This document shows, piece by piece, positions 29,501-38,500 of a stretch of 64,000 nucleotides of DNA (position 1 is the stretch's first letter; the number at the start of each line of letters is the position of its first letter). The position numbers were made by a program. Source of the stretch: Escherichia coli (lineage in GTDB: Bacteria > Pseudomonadota > Gammaproteobacteria > Enterobacterales > Enterobacteriaceae); the NCBI RefSeq assembly GCF_013315695.1, contig NZ_CP054353.1; one strand, written 5' to 3'.

Positions 29501-32500
29501 AGAGCCGTTGACTATTGATGAAGGTAACATTTTTTTAAAATAAACCCAGTTTAAGCAACAATCAGGGACAAAACAGACTATTGCATGACAAATTTCACTG
29601 TCGCTATTTGCCCCACGTCATCCATCACCAGCAATTGATAATCGCCTTTATCCGTCAAATGCAGGGTCACGTTGCGCCCACGTTCAGTTAACGGTTCGCC
29701 GTTCAGAAACCACCAGCGTTCACCTGCCCCTCCACTTGATTGCAACGGCAAAGTCGCTTCCGCTGCGCCCGGTAAACGTTTAATAATCGCGCCATCGCGA
29801 ACACCTGTCAGCTGCAGTGGGAGTTGTGCATCGTGACCGTATGGCGGGCAAATTGTCGAGGCCGGTGGTAAGCGCACAGCGCGGCGTTCTGATGCGGGCA
29901 ACCAGGGTTCCAGCGGTAGTGGCCAGACATTTATCATTTCTTGTCGCGCCTGAGGGCAATCAGCGGCAACACGTTTGCCGTTTTCATCCAGCCAGATGGG
30001 GAAACGAATGCCATTAATGCCTTCCTGCTCCGGCAGTAATAGAGTTGGCGGCTGATTCCCGTCCAGCAGCCAGGTTGCCAGGCGGCGGCGACAGTTACCG
30101 TCACCTTCCGGCAAAGACTGTCCGCCCGGCCAGCAGATAACGCCACGACTTACAGAGTCAGGACGTGGGTCTTCCGGCAGATTCGCACTGCGCGACAGTA
30201 AGATATTATTGACCTGATTCAACAATGGTACGGCGCTGGCAAAGCCAAACTGACCAACAACGGGCGTGCCGTCCGGTCTGCCAGTCCAGATCCCAATGAC
30301 ATAGCGAGCGTTAACCCCAATCGCCCAGGCATCACGATAGCCATAGCTGGTGCCCGTTTTCCATGCCAGTGGGGCGACGCGCGGCAAGGCACCATCCGGC
30401 AAGGGTTGCGCTTCATCAGCCATAATCCGGCGAATGATCCACGCAGCCCCCGACGACATTAAAGGCCGTTCAAGCAGCGGATCGTCAGGCTGTAAGCGCA
30501 ATTTACCTGCCTTGCCGTGGCGAGCAAACGCGGTATACGCTGCCGCCATATCTTCCAGTTTTGCGCCAGCGCCGCCGAGAATGAGCGAAAGATTCGGTGC
30601 AGCACCGTTGGGCAAATATAACGGCAATCCAACATTGCGTAACTTTGCCGCAAACCGTTTCGGTCCATAGGCTTCCAGCACCTGCACAGCAGGTAAGTTC
30701 AGCGATCGCACCAGCGCCTCACTCATGCTGATCGGGCCATGAAAACCGCTGTCAAAGTTGCCAGGTCGGTAATCACCGGTGCGTCGGGGGACGTCTTGCA
30801 ACAGCGATGCCGGGTGGATCAATCCTTCATCAAGCGCCAGACCATAAACAAACGGTTTGAGCACCGATCCTGGCGATCGGATCGCATTGACTATATCAAC
30901 ATGACCAAAGCGTGAATCATCGTTGAGATCAACCGATCCCACCCAACCGCGAACACGCATATCGGTATGGTCAACCACGATCATCGCCAGTGTGCTGCGC
31001 GGTGGTAATCGTCCTTTCCAGTTTTGCGCCAGTTCTTCCAGACGTCGTTGAAGACCGGCATCCAGCGTCGTAACGATTTTGTCGCTTTTGCTTTTACCGA
31101 GCATCATGCGCGAAAACAGCGGTGCCAGTTGCGGCATTTGTCGGGGTGCCAGCCAGATGGGTTCTTCCCTTGACTCTTTTACCTGCTCACGGGACCACAC
31201 ACCTTGCACGGCCATCCTTTCGAGCACTTTATTACGCGCGGCTTCGGCACGTTCCGGCCAGCGATCCGGGCGCAGTCGGCTGGGCGCTTGCGGCAACACC
31301 GCCAGCATTGCCGCCTCGGAATAGCTTAAATTCGCAGGCGATTTTCCGAGATAAGCCCAACTTGCCGCACCGATCCCCTGCAACGTACCGCCAAACGGAG
31401 CGCGGTTAAGATACAAGGTCAGAATTTCACGCTTAGACAGATGCCACTCCAGTTGCAACGCGCGCCAGAGCTGGCGAATTTTGCCGCCAAATGTTTTGGG
31501 GTGAGGATCAAGCAGACGAGCAACCTGCATAGTGAGCGTGCTGCCACCGGAAATAACCCTTCCCGAAGTGAGATCTTGCCATGCTGCGCGCACCACCGAG
31601 AATGGATTCACCCCCGGATGCTTCCAGAACCAGCGATCTTCATAATTGATCAGCGCTTCAAGGTAACGTGGAGAAACATCTTCGATTGTTACCGGATAAC
31701 GCCAGATGCCTTCCGCATCGGCAAAGCGCCAGAGCGGCGTCCCATCCTGCGCCACAACCACTCGTGCGGGATTGACTTCATGCAGCGGTAGAGGCCAGAG
31801 TTTATCTGCTCCCCACGCTGCAAGAAAAAGGAGAAATGGCGCAGCTGCCAGCGTTATCCAGCAGCCGCGTTTGGTTAACAAGCGAGGCATTTACGGTCTG
31901 ACAATTAGCAAATCTTCAGCCGCGCCGGTCGCCCGCCATTGGGGAACATACATTGATTCCACCATCGGTTGCGGTACCTGATACGTTCCCGGCGTCACCG
32001 CCCGCGCCAGATACACCAGCGTTACCGGTTGGTATTCATCAACGGCAACCGCCGCCACAAAGCGATCGTCACGGAACTCAATGTGCTTAATACTCGCCTG
32101 CTGCATCTGGTTCAGTAAGTTCTGCACTTCGCCACCACTTTGCTCCAGGCTGGCGCTACCGTTCGCCAGATTCTGGTTTTCCAGTTCCAGACCCGCTGGC
32201 AGCAGATCCACGACCAACGCATCCGGCACGCTGTTACTGGCTTTAACCTGCAACCACACCAGCACCAGATCGCCGCTACGTAACGAGTCCAGCGATTTGC
32301 TCTTACCATCAGTACCAAGAATATGACGCTCGATTTGCAGCACATTGTTCGCCGGTAAAGGTGCGGATTGCGGATAACCGCTGGCATCCACACGCAGCCA
32401 TAACGGCTGATCGCCACTGTTGCTCACCTGCAAGGTGGCAAGTTGATCGCTATTCAGATTGCTGTTTTGCGCTTTCTCGCCTGTCAGCGGCTCAGCTGAG

Positions 32501-35500: not shown

Positions 35501-38500
35501 CAGGTAAAGTGGTAGAGGCCATTCTCCGGCTGACTAACGACGCTCCTGAGTACCTGCCCGTCGGGTTTAATCACGTCTAACTTGATGGGTTGATCGGGCA
35601 ATGCTTTACCATCTGCATCACGCAATAAACCATTGAGGATGACTGTTTCACCCGGGCGATAAAGATCGCGCGGGCCAAACATGAAAAACTGTTTGCTATA
35701 GCCTGGCGCGCCAGCAATGTTAAATTCTGCTAAGTCCAGCGCCGGAAGTTTTAAATCGAGTAGCGTTGTCTGACCGTCTTTACGCGCCAGCAGTAATGCC
35801 GCGTTTTTATCATTTTCCAGCTGCACATGCCCCTGAGCATCACTGGTTGCCTGAGTCAGAGTCTGCCCTTTCTCATTTAATAAAGAGACTTCTATTCCTT
35901 GCTGGGCCGCGCCGTTTTCCAGACTTTGGGTAAAGATATCCAGACGATTGTGATAACGGTGAGCTGAAACGCCGATATCACTTAACGTAAACAGCGTCGC
36001 GGGATTACTGTAATCGTAACGTCCAGCCTGATTCATCACAGCCAGATACACGCCTGCCTGCTGAAGCGGTTTGATATCGCCCAGCGGCAGCAATAATTTT
36101 TCACGGGTGTTACGCGCAGGATTGAGATCAAACCGTCCAGTGTAGACCAGATCCGCCATCTGCAGCAGTTTGTCTGACTGCCAGTTCGCCAGCGAATTGC
36201 GGTATTCCCATTGGCTAATGAAAGCGGGCAGTGATTCTGGTTTCACACGGAAGAAGTTAACATCGACATTGTTAACGTTGAGCGCCATTACCGGCAGCCC
36301 TTCAATAACTTTACCAGGTAACAACGAACCACGGCTGGCAAAACCGACGCTGGGTTGGATATCACGGGTAGTTATAGTTTTTTCGTAATCTTTACTGAAG
36401 GTTGCGTTGTTGAGTGCTTTGACCTCCTTGCCAATAGTGACGATCAAATCACGTTTCGGTTCGAGGTGGCGTAAACGCAACTCTTTAAGATTATCTGACA
36501 GCTCCCAGGCACCATCCACTTTGCCGCTTTTCTTATCGACGACATGGATAACGCGTGAGAAATCCTGATCCGGATCGAGAGGAATGGAGAACGTCAGCAC
36601 CAGCGTGGCTGCGCCATCAAGTTGAACTTCAGAGAGATCCAGCAATGTCAGCGCCTTACCGGCACTCTGTTGGGCCAGTTTTTGTCGCTCCGGCGCGGAA
36701 AGTTTTGCTGAACTCACGTTTTCTGAAGAGGCCGCTTTAGTAACTTCAGAAGGCGCATCTTTTTTCACCGCTGTTGGCGCGTTATCGTTGTTGTCGCACC
36801 CTGCCAGCGCCAGCATTAGCATGCAGGCGGCTACGCGTAACTTTTTCATTTTTCATCCCTGCCACAATGGCCCGTTAGCAACGTCGAATAATTATTATGC
36901 GTGAGAATTTACGTTATGTAATTCAGTATCACGCCCATACAATCCGAATTTTAGTGAGAATTGTGGCTCAGACAGCCAAATCAGCCTCTTTTGCTTGTCG
37001 CTTTTCACTAAACATCCGACAATTTAGCCTAACCCCGGCAAAAATGGAGATGCCTATGTCCACGACATGGTTTGTAGGAGCCGACTGGCTCGCCGAACAT
37101 ATTGATGACCCGGAAATTCAGATTATCGATGCCCGCATGGCGTCGCCTGGACAGGAAGATCGTAACGTTGCTCAGGAGTATCTGAATGGACATATTCCCG
37201 GCGCAGTGTTTTTTGATATCGAAGCGCTTTCTGATCACACTTCCCCGCTTCCGCACATGCTGCCGCGCCCGGAAACGTTCGCCGTGGCGATGCGTGAATT
37301 AGGCGTTAACCAGGATAAGCACCTGATTATCTATGACGAAGGTAATCTTTTCTCAGCCCCACGAGCATGGTGGATGCTGCGCACCTTTGGTGTAGAGAAA
37401 GTGTCGATTCTGGGGGGTGGACTTGCAGGCTGGCAGCGCGATGATCTGCTGTTAGAAGAAGGTGCAGTAGAGCTGCCGGAAGGAGAGTTTAACGCCACGT
37501 TTAATCCTGAAGCCGTGGTGAAAGTCACCGATGTGTTATTGGCAAGCCATGAAAATACGGCGCAAATTATTGATGCCCGCCCGGCTGCACGTTTTAACGC
37601 AGAAGTTGATGAACCTCGCCCAGGTTTACGTCGCGGACATATTCCCGGTGCATTGAACGTTCCGTGGACGGAACTGGTGCGCGAAGGCGAACTAAAAACG
37701 ACCGATGAACTGGATGCGATATTTTTTGGTCGCGGCGTCAGCTATGACAAACCGATTATCGTCAGCTGCGGCTCTGGTGTAACGGCAGCCGTGGTTTTGT
37801 TGGCACTCGCGACACTTGATGTGCCAAACGTGAAACTGTACGACGGCGCATGGAGTGAATGGGGCGCACGAGCAGATTTACCGGTTGAGCCCGTAAAATA
37901 AGCTTTTTACAGGCAATAAAAAACCGCCGAATTTGGCGGTTTTTTATTGCTGGTCTGGTTCGCGGCCTTTCCAGCAGGTTGTATTACTGCAAGTGTATCT
38001 CGTCTACTCAATACTCGCTTTATGCATCAACGATGTCGGTGATGCTGCCAACTTACTGATTTAGTGTATGATGGTGTTTTTGAGGTGCTCCAGTGGCTTC
38101 TGTTTCTATCAGCTGTCCCTCCTGTTCAGCTACTGACGGGGTGGTGCGTAACGGCAAAAGCACCGCCGGACATCAGCGCTATCTCTGCTCTCACTGCCGT
38201 AAAACATGGCAACTGCAGTTCACTTACACCGCTTCTCAACCCGGTACGCACCAGAAAATCATTGATATGGCCATGAATGGCGTTGGATGCCGGGCAACAG
38301 CCCGCATTATGGGCGTTGGCCTCAACACGATTTTACGTCACTTAAAAAACTCAGGCCGCAGTCGGTAACCTCGCGCATACAGCCGGGCAGTGACGTCATC
38401 GTCTGCGCGGAAATGGACGAACAGTGGGGCTATGTCGGGGCTAAATCGCGCCAGCGCTGGCTGTTTTACGCGTATGACAGGCTCCGGAAGACGGTTGTTG

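What the first reader, a model, noticed from the sequence alone, without database searches (positions are those of the whole stretch)
29578..36849. yfhM-pbpC pair with abutting stop and start
The alpha-2-macroglobulin gene stop (31891) directly abuts the pbpC start (31890), consistent with co-transcription of the known macroglobulin / PBP1C pair. The CLEQ thioester motif is intact.
Basis: established knowledge. Interest (0 to 1): 0.25.

Follow-up and report, generated by a model that had tools for sequence, protein, structure and literature searches.

The report
Known yfhM-pbpC operon, conserved junction hairpin

Summary
On the minus strand, yfhM (31891-36849, 1652 aa) ends in TAA at 31893-31891 and pbpC (29578-31890, 770 aa) starts with ATG at 31890-31888. 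The CLEQ thioester motif is intact at residues 1187-1190. The window is E. coli chromosome, both proteins are orthodox ECAM and PBP1C, and 5425 of 5426 complete E. coli genomes hold a match to the region. The pair itself is already known.

The junction is under selection. In 52 Enterobacteriaceae species the stop and start are 0 or 1 nt apart, and no Shine-Dalgarno sequence precedes the pbpC start in any of 51 species scored. This fits co-transcription with translational coupling. No promoter or terminator consensus lies at the junction, and published K-12 Term-seq tables list no 3' end there.

The new element is a 12-16 bp GC-rich RNA hairpin at pbpC +22..+51 (window 31869-31840). It is present in all 52 species, and 9 of its 12 core pairs show compensatory changes. 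It is more stable than synonymous recodings and forces amino-acid covariation. It has no Rfam match. Three distant lineages carry unrelated hairpins at +21, +24 and +35. One RNA-seq table shows pbpC at about 6.5-fold lower density than yfhM. The hairpin's function, reinitiation control or attenuation, is unresolved.

The parts
31891..36849 (-). yfhM CDS: type I bacterial alpha-2-macroglobulin (ECAM), 1652 aa
   Evidence: ORF. Pfam bMG1, bMG2, bMG3, MG2, bMG5, bMG6, BRD, A2M, TED, CUB and bMG10. PDB 4rtd/4ziq/5a42 at E=0. RefSeq annotation. 19 differences from K-12, including loss of S1373.
36796..36849 (-). lipoprotein signal peptide with lipobox LALAG|C18; Asp at position +2
   Evidence: Read directly from the translation MKKLRVAACMLMLALAGCDNN. 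Inner-membrane retention by Asp+2 is established knowledge, not tested here.
34024..34083 (-). bait region core (residues 923-942)
   Evidence: Residues Arg923-Leu942 are the disordered, cleaved bait stretch in 4RTD (PMC4498604). The sequence 905-965 is identical to K-12.
33280..33291 (-). thioester motif CLEQ (Cys1187-Gln1190)
   Evidence: GCLEQ is present in 50 of 52 orthologous loci, and none was found in the other 2.
31948..32073 (-). C-terminal MG10 lock motifs RDDR (1593-1596) and ESMY (1631-1634)
   Evidence: The motifs are named in PMC4498604.
31888..31893 (-). junction TAA|ATG: yfhM stop abutting pbpC start
   Evidence: Spacing of 0-1 nt in 52 of 52 species.
31891..31912 (-). 22 nt upstream of the pbpC ATG with no Shine-Dalgarno complementarity
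   Evidence: No favourable pairing to the anti-SD in the window (best 0 kcal/mol). Across 51 species the mean is -0.18 kcal/mol and none reaches -4, against 31% of random yfhM positions.
31840..31869 (-). conserved RNA hairpin: 12-bp stem and 6-nt loop, pbpC +22..+51 (codons 8-17)
   Evidence: -20.1 kcal/mol, z -5.05, 0 of 200 shuffles. Present in 52 of 52 species. 9 of 12 pairs have compensatory changes. Covariation score 0.401 against 0.141+-0.011 in shuffles (0 of 500) and at most 0.142 when slid. Synonymous recoding gives native -23.9 against -15.0 kcal/mol. The covariance model finds it once in the window at E 5.7e-11. No Rfam hit.
31820..31839 (-). U-rich stretch after the hairpin (CCAUUUCUCCUUUUUCUUGC), coding for the start of the membrane anchor
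   Evidence: U at third codon positions is 0.36 in codons 18-23 against 0.19 in the rest of pbpC, and CUG makes up 0.36 against 0.55 of Leu codons. The window sequence narrowly fails the terminator rule.
31876..31938 (-). hairpin 1: the yfhM 3' end pairs with the pbpC AUG and codons 2-5 (Escherichia only)
   Evidence: -26.1 kcal/mol, z -2.5. Kept in diverged E. coli alleles with one compensatory pair. Not conserved in other genera: mean z -0.26, 6 of 52 species at p<=0.05.
29578..31890 (-). pbpC CDS: class A PBP1C, 770 aa
   Evidence: NCBIfam NF008414 at 1561.6 bits (cutoff 1121) and TIGR02073 at 913 bits (cutoff 494). Pfam Transgly, Transpeptidase and BiPBP_C. 11 substitutions against K-12.
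31612..31641 (-). glycosyltransferase motif EDRWFWKHPG (Glu84)
30352..30867 (-). transpeptidase motifs S342VLK, S396LN and K511TG
36872..36890 (-). yfhM 5'UTR stretch found in RIL-seq chimeras with the sRNA CpxQ
   Evidence: K-12 2652310-2652328 in PMC10954441. Mapped by me onto the window, whose sseA-yfhM spacer is 100% identical to K-12.
36894..36922 (-). promoter-like hexamers ATTACA-17-CATAAT upstream of yfhM
   Evidence: Consensus scan only, 9 of 12 matches. Not evidence of function.

Best explanation
The locus is the known yfhM-pbpC operon of E. coli. YfhM (ECAM) is an inner-membrane-anchored lipoprotein that traps proteases which reach the periplasm: cleavage of its bait region exposes the Cys1187-Gln1190 thioester, which bonds covalently to the protease. 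PbpC (PBP1C) is a membrane-anchored peptidoglycan glycosyltransferase and transpeptidase thought to repair the wall. Shown here: the genes abut (TAA|ATG); the 0-1 nt spacing is fixed across Enterobacteriaceae; the pbpC start has no Shine-Dalgarno sequence; no promoter or terminator consensus, and no 3' end in the published Term-seq tables, separates the genes; and a covarying sense-strand RNA hairpin occupies pbpC +22..+51. Inferred: pbpC is transcribed from the yfhM promoter, and it is translated mainly by ribosomes that have just terminated on yfhM (termination-reinitiation). Also inferred: the hairpin is a functional cis-acting RNA element that sets PbpC output below YfhM output. My split on how the hairpin works is as follows. 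About 45%: it acts on translation, sitting just ahead of the front edge of a ribosome placed on the AUG, so it would confine post-termination ribosomes to the start codon or slow clearance of the start site. About 30%: it ends or protects a yfhM-only RNA, as a partial terminator or an exonuclease barrier. The remainder: some other role.
For: Gene identity rests, the motifs, and the literature on the pair. A match to the region is present in 5425 of 5426 complete E. coli genomes. The junction is 0 or 1 nt in 52 of 52 species. In distant lineages the junction is a 17-nt overlap, a 4-nt overlap, or a gap of 1, 6 or 10 nt. Anti-SD pairing upstream of the start averages -0.18 kcal/mol and reaches -4 in 0 of 51 species, against 31% of random positions in yfhM. 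There is no promoter- or terminator-rule hit at the junction, and no Term-seq 3' end in yfhM or pbpC. Conserved G.U pairs (UG in 49 and GU in 51 of 52 sequences) would be C.A mismatches on the other strand, so the structure belongs to the mRNA strand. Codon 8 pairs with codon 17, 9 with 16, 10 with 15 and 11 with 14, and the amino acids co-vary (Arg/Ala, Lys/Phe, Ser/Gly). There is no indel in the seven N-terminal codons of 52 species although their residues vary, so the distance from start codon to hairpin is fixed. Unrelated hairpins start at pbpC +24, +21 and +35 in three distant lineages with tight junctions. Each is the strongest stem of its locus and beats synonymous recoding (p 0.000, 0.017, 0.003). 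RNA-seq baseMean is 851.6 for yfhM and 60.8 for pbpC, or 171.6 against 26.3 per kb.
Against: No experiment in the held literature maps a transcript across the junction, and several supplement searches found nothing. The RNA-seq ratio comes from one data set of cells starved of nitrogen for 24 h, and it could reflect decay rather than synthesis. The peptide itself predisposes to structure, since recoded sequences still fold to -15 kcal/mol. Complementary codons naturally link basic and hydrophobic residues. Two of five distant tight junctions show no significant hairpin (L063, L064). The sample of distant lineages is small, and their organisms are not named. The species used for covariation are related, so the counts are not independent events. 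A hairpin starting at +22 lies outside the usual initiation footprint, so an effect on initiation is not self-evident.
Confidence: 0.6

Rival explanations
1. Plain polycistronic operon. The hairpin would be a by-product of encoding a signal anchor (basic residues followed by Leu/Ala/Phe, whose preferred codons happen to be complementary) and would have no function of its own.
For: Synonymously recoded versions still fold to -15 kcal/mol on average. The inner stem comes from the motif GCUGGC, which pairs with itself through G.U pairs and encodes Trp-Leu / Leu-Ala. U at second codon positions of hydrophobic residues explains part of the U-rich tail.
Against: 9 of 12 pairs show compensatory double changes, with up to five pair types per position. 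The covariation score is 0.401 against 0.141 in shuffles and at most 0.142 when slid. The native sequence is 8.9 kcal/mol more stable than recodings, and 46 of 52 species reach p<=0.05. Residue pairs such as Ser/Gly co-vary for no obvious protein reason. Distant lineages build hairpins from different parts of the protein: tail only in L068, membrane helix only in L066. pbpC genes without an upstream macroglobulin gene show none (L067, L071).
Confidence: 0.1
2. The hairpin is the 3' end of a yfhM-only message. It would be a leaky intrinsic terminator, or a barrier to 3'-5' exonucleases, that has come to lie inside pbpC because the genes have no spacer. pbpC would be expressed only from read-through.
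For: In 33 of 52 species the hairpin passes the terminator-like rule. In Klebsiella it is AAACGCCGCUGGC-GCUG-GCUGGCGGCGUUU followed by AUUUUUCU. U is enriched at synonymous sites after the stem. Relatives with a long spacer carry a hairpin straight after the macroglobulin stop: L060 has GGGGCGA..TCGCCCC followed by TATGCTTATT, and L069 has one too. pbpC RNA density is about 6.5-fold lower than yfhM.
Against: The window and K-12 sequences fail the U-tract rule, with tails CCAUUUCU and CCCUUUCU. The hairpins of L066, L068 and L070 have no U tail. Published K-12 Term-seq tables list no 3' end in the region under the conditions covered by those tables, and the bicyclomycin table has no entry there. 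Hairpin position is tighter relative to the pbpC start (+21 to +24 in four of five classes) than relative to the stop (20 to 41 nt).
Confidence: 0.3
3. pbpC is expressed independently, from a promoter inside the yfhM 3' part and by de novo initiation. The abutment would then be only compaction.
For: pbpC homologues occur without an upstream macroglobulin gene in some lineages (L067, L071). yfhM and pbpC RNA levels differ.
Against: There is no sigma-70-like site on the minus strand between 31891 and about 36890 other than the site upstream of yfhM. There is no Shine-Dalgarno sequence in any of 51 species. The 0-1 nt spacing is conserved in 52 of 52 species. pbpC RNA is lower than yfhM RNA, not higher.
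Confidence: 0.05

Closest known systems
E. coli alpha-2-macroglobulin ECAM (YfhM) with PBP1C: the type I bacterial A2M / pbpC pair (Budd 2004 and Doan & Gettins 2008 as cited in PMC4498604; structures 4RTD, 4ZIQ, 5A42)
   Same: It is this system. It has the same gene order, the same stop-start abutment as K-12, the same domains and the same CLEQ at 1187-1190. YfhM has 19 and PbpC 11 amino-acid differences from K-12.
   Different: Nothing of substance at the protein level. In the papers and supplements of the held library that I searched I found no mention of the Shine-Dalgarno-less start or the hairpin inside pbpC.
Salmonella enterica Sa-A2M (PDB 4U48)
   Same: An orthologue at 3055 bits over residues 18-1652. 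The Salmonella loci L016 and L056 have the same TAA|ATG junction and the hairpin.
   Different: A different species. The PbpC N-terminal residues differ (MNGWRGKRGRW...) while the stem is kept.
Type II bacterial A2M MagD in the magABCDEF operon of Pseudomonas aeruginosa (PMC3735191, PMC5764988)
   Same: A macroglobulin fold in the periplasm that traps proteases.
   Different: No lipobox Cys, no CXEQ motif, a six-gene operon and no pbpC. The window protein has all the type I features, so it is not of this class.
Hairpins inside operons that set unequal expression of neighbouring cistrons (malE-malF REP, Rhodobacter puf, pap BA; recalled from my own knowledge, not checked here)
   Same: A stable stem-loop just after the upstream cistron, with the upstream gene's RNA more abundant than the downstream gene's.
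   Different: Those lie in intercistronic spacers. This one is embedded in the coding sequence of the downstream gene and constrains its amino acids. No stable 3' end has been mapped here.
Termination-reinitiation that needs RNA structure near a stop-start junction (calicivirus TURBS upstream; SART1 retrotransposon structure downstream of the ORF1 stop; PMC10275272), and bacterial post-termination scanning (own knowledge)
   Same: Stop and start adjacent, no independent ribosome-binding site, and a structured element within a few tens of nt of the junction.
   Different: Those are eukaryotic or viral systems. Dependence of pbpC translation on the hairpin or on yfhM translation is untested.
rph-pyrE translation-coupled attenuator of E. 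coli (own knowledge)
   Same: An upstream ORF ends shortly before a GC-rich hairpin with a U-rich tail, so ribosome position could decide whether the hairpin forms.
   Different: There the hairpin lies in a spacer and a terminated RNA is documented. Here the stop lies 21 nt before the stem, and the U tract is weak in E. coli.

Membership tests
Type I (thioester) bacterial alpha-2-macroglobulin | N-terminal lipoprotein signal with a lipobox cysteine | tested here: met
   MKKLRVAACMLMLALAG|C18 D19, read from the translation.
Type I (thioester) bacterial alpha-2-macroglobulin | Series of MG domains with bait-region domain, TED, CUB and C-terminal MG | tested here: met
   Eleven Pfam families above their cut-offs, in order along the protein.
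Type I (thioester) bacterial alpha-2-macroglobulin | CXEQ thioester motif | tested here: met
   CLEQ at 1187-1190. Conserved in 50 of 52 loci, and none was found in the other 2.
Type I (thioester) bacterial alpha-2-macroglobulin | Thioester forms and proteases are trapped covalently | not testable with these tools
   Shown for ECAM in the literature (PMC4498604, PMC3328433). The window protein differs from K-12 at 19 positions, none of them in the bait core (905-965) or the CLEQ motif.
Type I (thioester) bacterial alpha-2-macroglobulin | Gene next to pbpC | tested here: met
   Also true in 8 of the 10 distant pbpC loci whose upstream DNA could be read.
PBP1C (class A penicillin-binding protein, PbpC) | Score above the NCBIfam equivalog cut-offs | tested here: met
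   NF008414 at 1561.6 bits against 1121, and TIGR02073 at 913.1 against 494.2.
PBP1C (class A penicillin-binding protein, PbpC) | GT51 glycosyltransferase domain with the catalytic Glu motif | tested here: met
   PF00912 at E 3e-52. E84DRWFWKHPG and GGSTLTMQ.
PBP1C (class A penicillin-binding protein, PbpC) | Transpeptidase motifs SxxK, SxN and KTG | tested here: met
   S342VLK, S396LN and K511TG. PF00905.
PBP1C (class A penicillin-binding protein, PbpC) | C-terminal BiPBP_C domain | tested here: met
   PF06832 at residues 687-767, E 1.5e-17.
Operon with translational coupling | Same strand, no spacer, juxtaposition conserved across species | tested here: met
Operon with translational coupling | No promoter or terminator between the cistrons | tested here: inconclusive
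   No consensus hit at the junction and no Term-seq 3' end. However, a terminator-like hairpin lies at pbpC +22 in 33 of 52 species, and RNA density is unequal.
Operon with translational coupling | One transcript covers both genes, and downstream translation depends on upstream translation | not testable with these tools
   No mapping data were found. The absence of a Shine-Dalgarno sequence is indirect support only.
Intrinsic (Rho-independent) terminator | GC-rich stem-loop | tested here: met
   12 bp, -20.1 kcal/mol.
Intrinsic (Rho-independent) terminator | U tract directly after the stem | tested here: not met
   The window tail CCAUUUCUCC has 4 U in any 8-nt frame, and neither the tool's scan nor my re-implementation of its rule flags it. 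The rule is met in 33 of 52 other species and is absent in L066, L068 and L070.
Intrinsic (Rho-independent) terminator | Mapped RNA 3' end | tested here: not met
   No entry between K-12 2644588 and 2653354 on the minus strand in the tables of PMC7815308. Low expression could hide one.
Curated RNA families (Rfam 15) | Match to a covariance model | tested here: not met
   No match at E<=1 in 29400-37100 on either strand.
Conserved structured cis-acting RNA element (generic) | Base pairs kept through compensatory changes, beyond the controls | tested here: met

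The most novel reading that the evidence does not exclude
The hairpin at pbpC +22 would be a dedicated reinitiation device. 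It would stand just ahead of a ribosome placed on the Shine-Dalgarno-less start codon and keep ribosomes that have just finished YfhM from drifting away, so that PBP1C is made in a fixed, low ratio to the macroglobulin. The same solution would have arisen or been kept in several distant lineages with unrelated sequences. That would make it a bacterial counterpart of structure-dependent termination-reinitiation, strong enough to dictate the amino acids of the PBP1C membrane anchor.
Probability: 0.3. Interest if true: 0.55.

Novelty: new member of a known kind. Interest (0 to 1): 0.3.

Why it matters
The gene pair itself adds nothing new: it is annotated in every E. coli genome and has solved structures. 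The junction is of modest interest. It has long been proposed, but not explained, that the macroglobulin and PBP1C act together as a periplasmic defence-and-repair unit. How their amounts are linked has not, in the literature I could search, been addressed. A Shine-Dalgarno-less abutting start plus a covarying hairpin gives a concrete and easily mutated handle on that linkage. It is also a clear example of RNA structure selection overriding protein sequence in a signal-anchor region. That matters for anyone who recodes pbpC, fuses tags to its N terminus, or reads substitutions there as protein adaptation.

Tried and rejected
1. Hairpin 1, in which the yfhM 3' end pairs with the pbpC AUG. It is significant in Escherichia (z -2.5 to -3.0) but not conserved elsewhere (mean z -0.26, 6 of 52 species). 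I reject it as a general feature.

2. A DNA cruciform or an antisense RNA. Conserved G.U pairs would be C.A mismatches on the other strand.

3. A repeated palindromic element of the REP type. The covariance model finds a single copy in the 64-kb window, with the next hit at E 0.47, and the 400-nt junction query matches one place per genome.

4. A known RNA family. There is no Rfam hit.

5. A read-through fusion protein. pbpC is in frame with yfhM in the 0-nt species but in the +1 frame in the 1-nt species, so no frame relation is conserved.

6. Programmed frameshifting stimulated by the hairpin. There is no conserved slippery heptamer 5-9 nt upstream of the stem, and the stop lies 21 nt away (reading of alignment A1).

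7. An internal promoter for pbpC. There is no consensus hit.

8. Hfq-bound RNA at the junction. No RIL-seq coordinates in K-12 26472xx-26474xx appear in PMC10954441. yfhM appears only as a CDS or 5'UTR partner.

9. Transcript-boundary data. Searches in supplements of PMC7815308, PMC10687069, PMC11092163, PMC4161252 and PMC8848933 found nothing for pbpC or yfhM, or the files were not held. Budd 2004, Li 2014 and Schmidt 2016 are not held.

10. One script was killed by the sandbox and rerun.

Full report
**Observation.** ORFs on the minus strand run 36849..31891 (1652 aa) and 31890..29578 (770 aa). The strand reads ...GTC AGA CCG TAA ATG CCT CGC.... The yfhM stop is therefore 31893-31891 and the pbpC ATG is 31890-31888, with no spacer and no overlap. 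CLEQ is at residues 1187-1190, window 33291..33280.

**Identity.** The stretch 29400-37000 is 100% identical to two E. coli chromosomes, and 5425 of 5426 complete E. coli genomes hold a match to it, always on the chromosome. RefSeq annotates yfhM (alpha2-macroglobulin) and pbpC with the same limits, and K-12 has the same abutment.

- YfhM carries, in order, bMG1, bMG2, bMG3, MG2, bMG5, bMG6, the bait-region domain, A2M, TED, CUB and bMG10.
- It matches the solved ECAM chains 4rtd, 4ziq and 5a42 and Salmonella 4u48 at E=0.
- It has the lipobox LALAG|C18 with Asp at +2, and the RDDR and ESMY lock motifs. Its bait stretch (905-965) is identical to K-12. It has 19 differences from K-12 in all, including loss of Ser1373.
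- PbpC exceeds the NCBIfam equivalog cut-offs (NF008414 at 1561.6 against 1121; TIGR02073 at 913 against 494).
- It has EDRWFWKHPG, SVLK, SLN, KTG and the BiPBP_C domain.

The literature describes this type I macroglobulin as juxtaposed to, or in an operon with, pbpC. It proposes a joint periplasmic defence and repair role (PMC4498604, PMC3328433, PMC5764988, PMC3735191). The pair is already known.

**Is the abutment meaningful?** Within E. coli the 400 nt around the junction exist in two allele classes. About 1109 genomes are only about 90% identical to the window there. The 200-nt windows at the junction are the most diverged of the whole locus at 86-88% identity, yet TAAATG is unchanged.

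A scan of one genome per species with the last 350 residues of YfhM returned 53 loci. One is a 266-nt fragment. The other 52 are from Enterobacteriaceae: Escherichia, Citrobacter, Salmonella, Klebsiella, Raoultella, Enterobacter, Leclercia, Lelliottia, Trabulsiella, Pluralibacter, Silvania, Pseudescherichia and others. In all 52 the stop is followed by the start after 0 nt (TAA ATG, 24 species) or 1 nt (TAA N ATG in 18, TAA N GTG in 7, TAG C GTG in 3).

Representatives of distant PbpC clusters (34-61% identity) gave 10 loci with readable upstream DNA, and 8 of them have a macroglobulin gene directly upstream. Their junctions are a 17-nt overlap, a 4-nt overlap, gaps of 1, 6, 10 and 53 nt, and two long spacers of 263 and 287 nt.

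**Signals at the junction.**
- The 22 nt before the pbpC ATG show no favourable pairing with the anti-Shine-Dalgarno sequence.
- Across 51 species the mean is -0.18 kcal/mol and none reaches -4. Random positions in the yfhM 3' kilobase average -3.2, and 31% of them reach -4.
- The consensus scan finds no sigma-70-like site on the minus strand inside yfhM and no terminator-rule hit at the junction. Totals are at or below shuffle expectation.
- The Term-seq tables of Adams et al. 2021 list no minus-strand 3' end between 2644588 (inside ndk) and 2653354. Their bicyclomycin table has no entry in yfhM or pbpC.

The missing ribosome-binding site argues that pbpC depends on ribosomes arriving from yfhM. 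That last step is an inference.

**A conserved hairpin inside pbpC.** Folding 120 nt around the junction gives -48.1 kcal/mol (z -3.3), with two elements.

The first pairs the yfhM 3' end with the pbpC AUG and codons 2-5 (31938..31876; z -2.5). It is kept in diverged E. coli alleles with one compensatory pair. It is not conserved beyond Escherichia (mean z -0.26, 6 of 52 species), so I do not rely on it.

The second is a 12-bp stem with a 6-nt loop at pbpC +22..+51 (31869..31840; -20.1 kcal/mol, z -5.05, 0 of 200 shuffles).
- A stem of 12-17 bp and -17 to -31 kcal/mol is present at the same place in all 52 species.
- RNAalifold predicts the same 12 pairs, and 9 of them have compensatory double changes. 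For example, one pair is UA in 18 sequences, GC in 14, CG in 11, UG in 4 and GU in 2.
- On the 16-pair version, 83.7% of cells are paired against 69.7% in shuffles. The covariation score is 0.401 against 0.141+-0.011 (0 of 500 shuffles), and slid controls reach at most 0.142.
- Two G.U pairs are nearly invariant, so the structure is specific to the mRNA strand.
- Codon 8 pairs with codon 17, 9 with 16, 10 with 15 and 11 with 14, and the residues co-vary: RGCW..LAAA in E. coli, KSRW..LAGF and KRRW..LAAF elsewhere.
- Resampling synonymous codons from each gene's own usage gives -15.0 kcal/mol on average against -23.9 native (mean z -2.6; 46 of 52 species at p<=0.05). The peptide therefore predisposes to structure, but codon choice is further selected for it.
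- The seven codons before the stem vary in sequence but never in number.
- A covariance model built from the alignment finds the element once in the window (E 5.7e-11, next hit 0.47) and not in the distant loci.
- Rfam has no match.
- In the whole window only about nine uninterrupted stems of at least 11 bp reach -20 kcal/mol, and most of the others appear to lie between genes.

**Distant lineages.** Three of the five distant loci with tight junctions carry hairpins of unrelated sequence.

| Locus | Junction | Hairpin start | Energy (kcal/mol) | Recoding p |
|---|---|---|---|---|
| L066 | 4-nt overlap | +24 | -32.9 | 0.000 |
| L068 | 10-nt gap | +21 | -21.2 | 0.017 |
| L070 | 6-nt gap | +35 | -22.7 | 0.003 |

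- Each is the strongest stem in about 5 kb of its locus, matched by 0 of 123-232 control windows.
- They are built from different parts of the protein: the membrane helix in L066 and the cytoplasmic tail in L068. None has a U tail.
- L063 and L064 show nothing significant.
- The two loci with long spacers have a hairpin straight after the macroglobulin stop instead. In L060 it passes the terminator rule.
- The two pbpC genes without an upstream macroglobulin gene show no significant hairpin.

This sample is small and suggestive only.

**Expression.** In the DESeq2 table of McQuail et al. 2023 (E. coli starved of nitrogen for 24 h), baseMean is 851.6 for yfhM and 60.8 for pbpC. That is 171.6 against 26.3 per kb, a ratio of about 6.5. 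It is one data set and one condition.

**Mechanism.** I hold the protein functions as established: protease trapping by bait cleavage and thioester capture, and glycan polymerisation and cross-linking by PBP1C. I infer that pbpC is transcribed with yfhM and translated by termination-reinitiation. The hairpin is a real, selected RNA structure, but its role is open.
- For a translational role: its position is tighter relative to the start codon (+21 to +24 in four of five junction classes) than to the stop (20-41 nt). It begins a few nucleotides beyond the expected front edge of a ribosome on the AUG. The distant hairpins lack U tracts. No 3' end is mapped.
- For a 3'-end or attenuator role: it looks like a terminator in 33 of 52 species. 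U is enriched at synonymous sites after the stem (0.36 against 0.19; CUG 0.36 against 0.55). The spacer-borne hairpins of L060 and L069 fit this role, and so does the RNA-density drop.
- I put these at roughly 45% and 30%. I put about 10% on the hairpin being a by-product of the coding sequence, and the remainder on other roles.

**Verdict.** The finding is an accurate reading of a known operon. The thioester motif is intact and co-transcription is the best-supported reading. The added value is the conserved, apparently undescribed junction architecture: no ribosome-binding site, fixed 0-1 nt spacing, and a covarying hairpin that constrains the PBP1C N terminus. This is a new example of a familiar kind of cis-acting mRNA element. 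Interest is modest.

Noticed in passing
window 38038-38805 and 58296-59063: Two 100% identical IS1 copies lie in inverted orientation, each with a 9-bp target duplication. The first (AACGATGTC) sits between the sseA terminator and timP/ryfA. The second (TATCTTGCA) sits 12 nt upstream of the yphA ATG. The second is absent from the otherwise near-identical strain AF3. Together they bracket about 20 kb (sseB, pepB, isc-hsc-fdx, suhB, csiE, hca), which makes a possible inversion or composite-transposon substrate. Annotation transferred from AF3 is shifted by 777 nt after 58296.
   Followed up: yes
window 8557-19964 (- strand): An island encoding SinH (intimin-like inverse autotransporter), a SinI-family protein and an 8-kb adhesin gene lies between xseA and the zinc-ribbon gene next to der.
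   Followed up: no
window 19889-19936 (- strand): A 20-bp uninterrupted hairpin (-35.8 kcal/mol), the strongest in the window, lies inside the first 25 codons of sinH (+29..+76 from its start). This is a second case of a very stable stem in an N-terminal coding region.
   Followed up: no
L006 (E. coli NCTC9100) 6201-6376: This strain lacks pbpC and ndk. The yfhM stop is followed after 176 nt by rlmN. It is the genome in which only 55% of the 400-nt junction query matches.
   Followed up: partly
window 31691-32090 against 5425 E. coli genomes: About 1109 genomes carry a second allele class only about 90% identical around the junction, which is the most diverged stretch of the locus. This suggests old recombination or balancing diversity in the yfhM 3' and pbpC 5' region. 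The junction and the hairpin are kept in both classes.
   Followed up: partly
window 36872-36890 (- strand), yfhM 5'UTR: RIL-seq data (PMC10954441) report chimeras between the envelope-stress sRNA CpxQ and the yfhM 5'UTR, 23-41 nt upstream of the start codon. This suggests sRNA control of the operon's first gene.
   Followed up: partly
window 31891-36849 (yfhM), literature: Shimada et al. 2017 (PMC5493296) list a sigma-E holoenzyme SELEX peak inside yfhM (type D, coordinate 2649866 in their numbering). I did not resolve which genome version the coordinate refers to.
   Followed up: no
window 29578-31890 (pbpC): No chain of PBP1C itself is in the PDB copy. The best hits are PBP1A entries (4oon, E 3.9e-55), and they cover mainly the glycosyltransferase domain.
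   Followed up: no
window 29430-29577 (- strand): The 148-nt spacer between pbpC and ndk has a good promoter-like site (TAGTCA-17-TATAAT, 10 of 12) but no terminator-like hairpin after pbpC. Transcripts that reach the end of pbpC may therefore run into ndk.
   Followed up: no
window 37912-37951: A 15-16 bp palindrome with A and U tracts on both sides follows sseA and looks like a two-way terminator. The K-12 counterpart has a Term-seq 3' end on the minus strand (2653354), next to the annotated sRNA gene timR.
   Followed up: no
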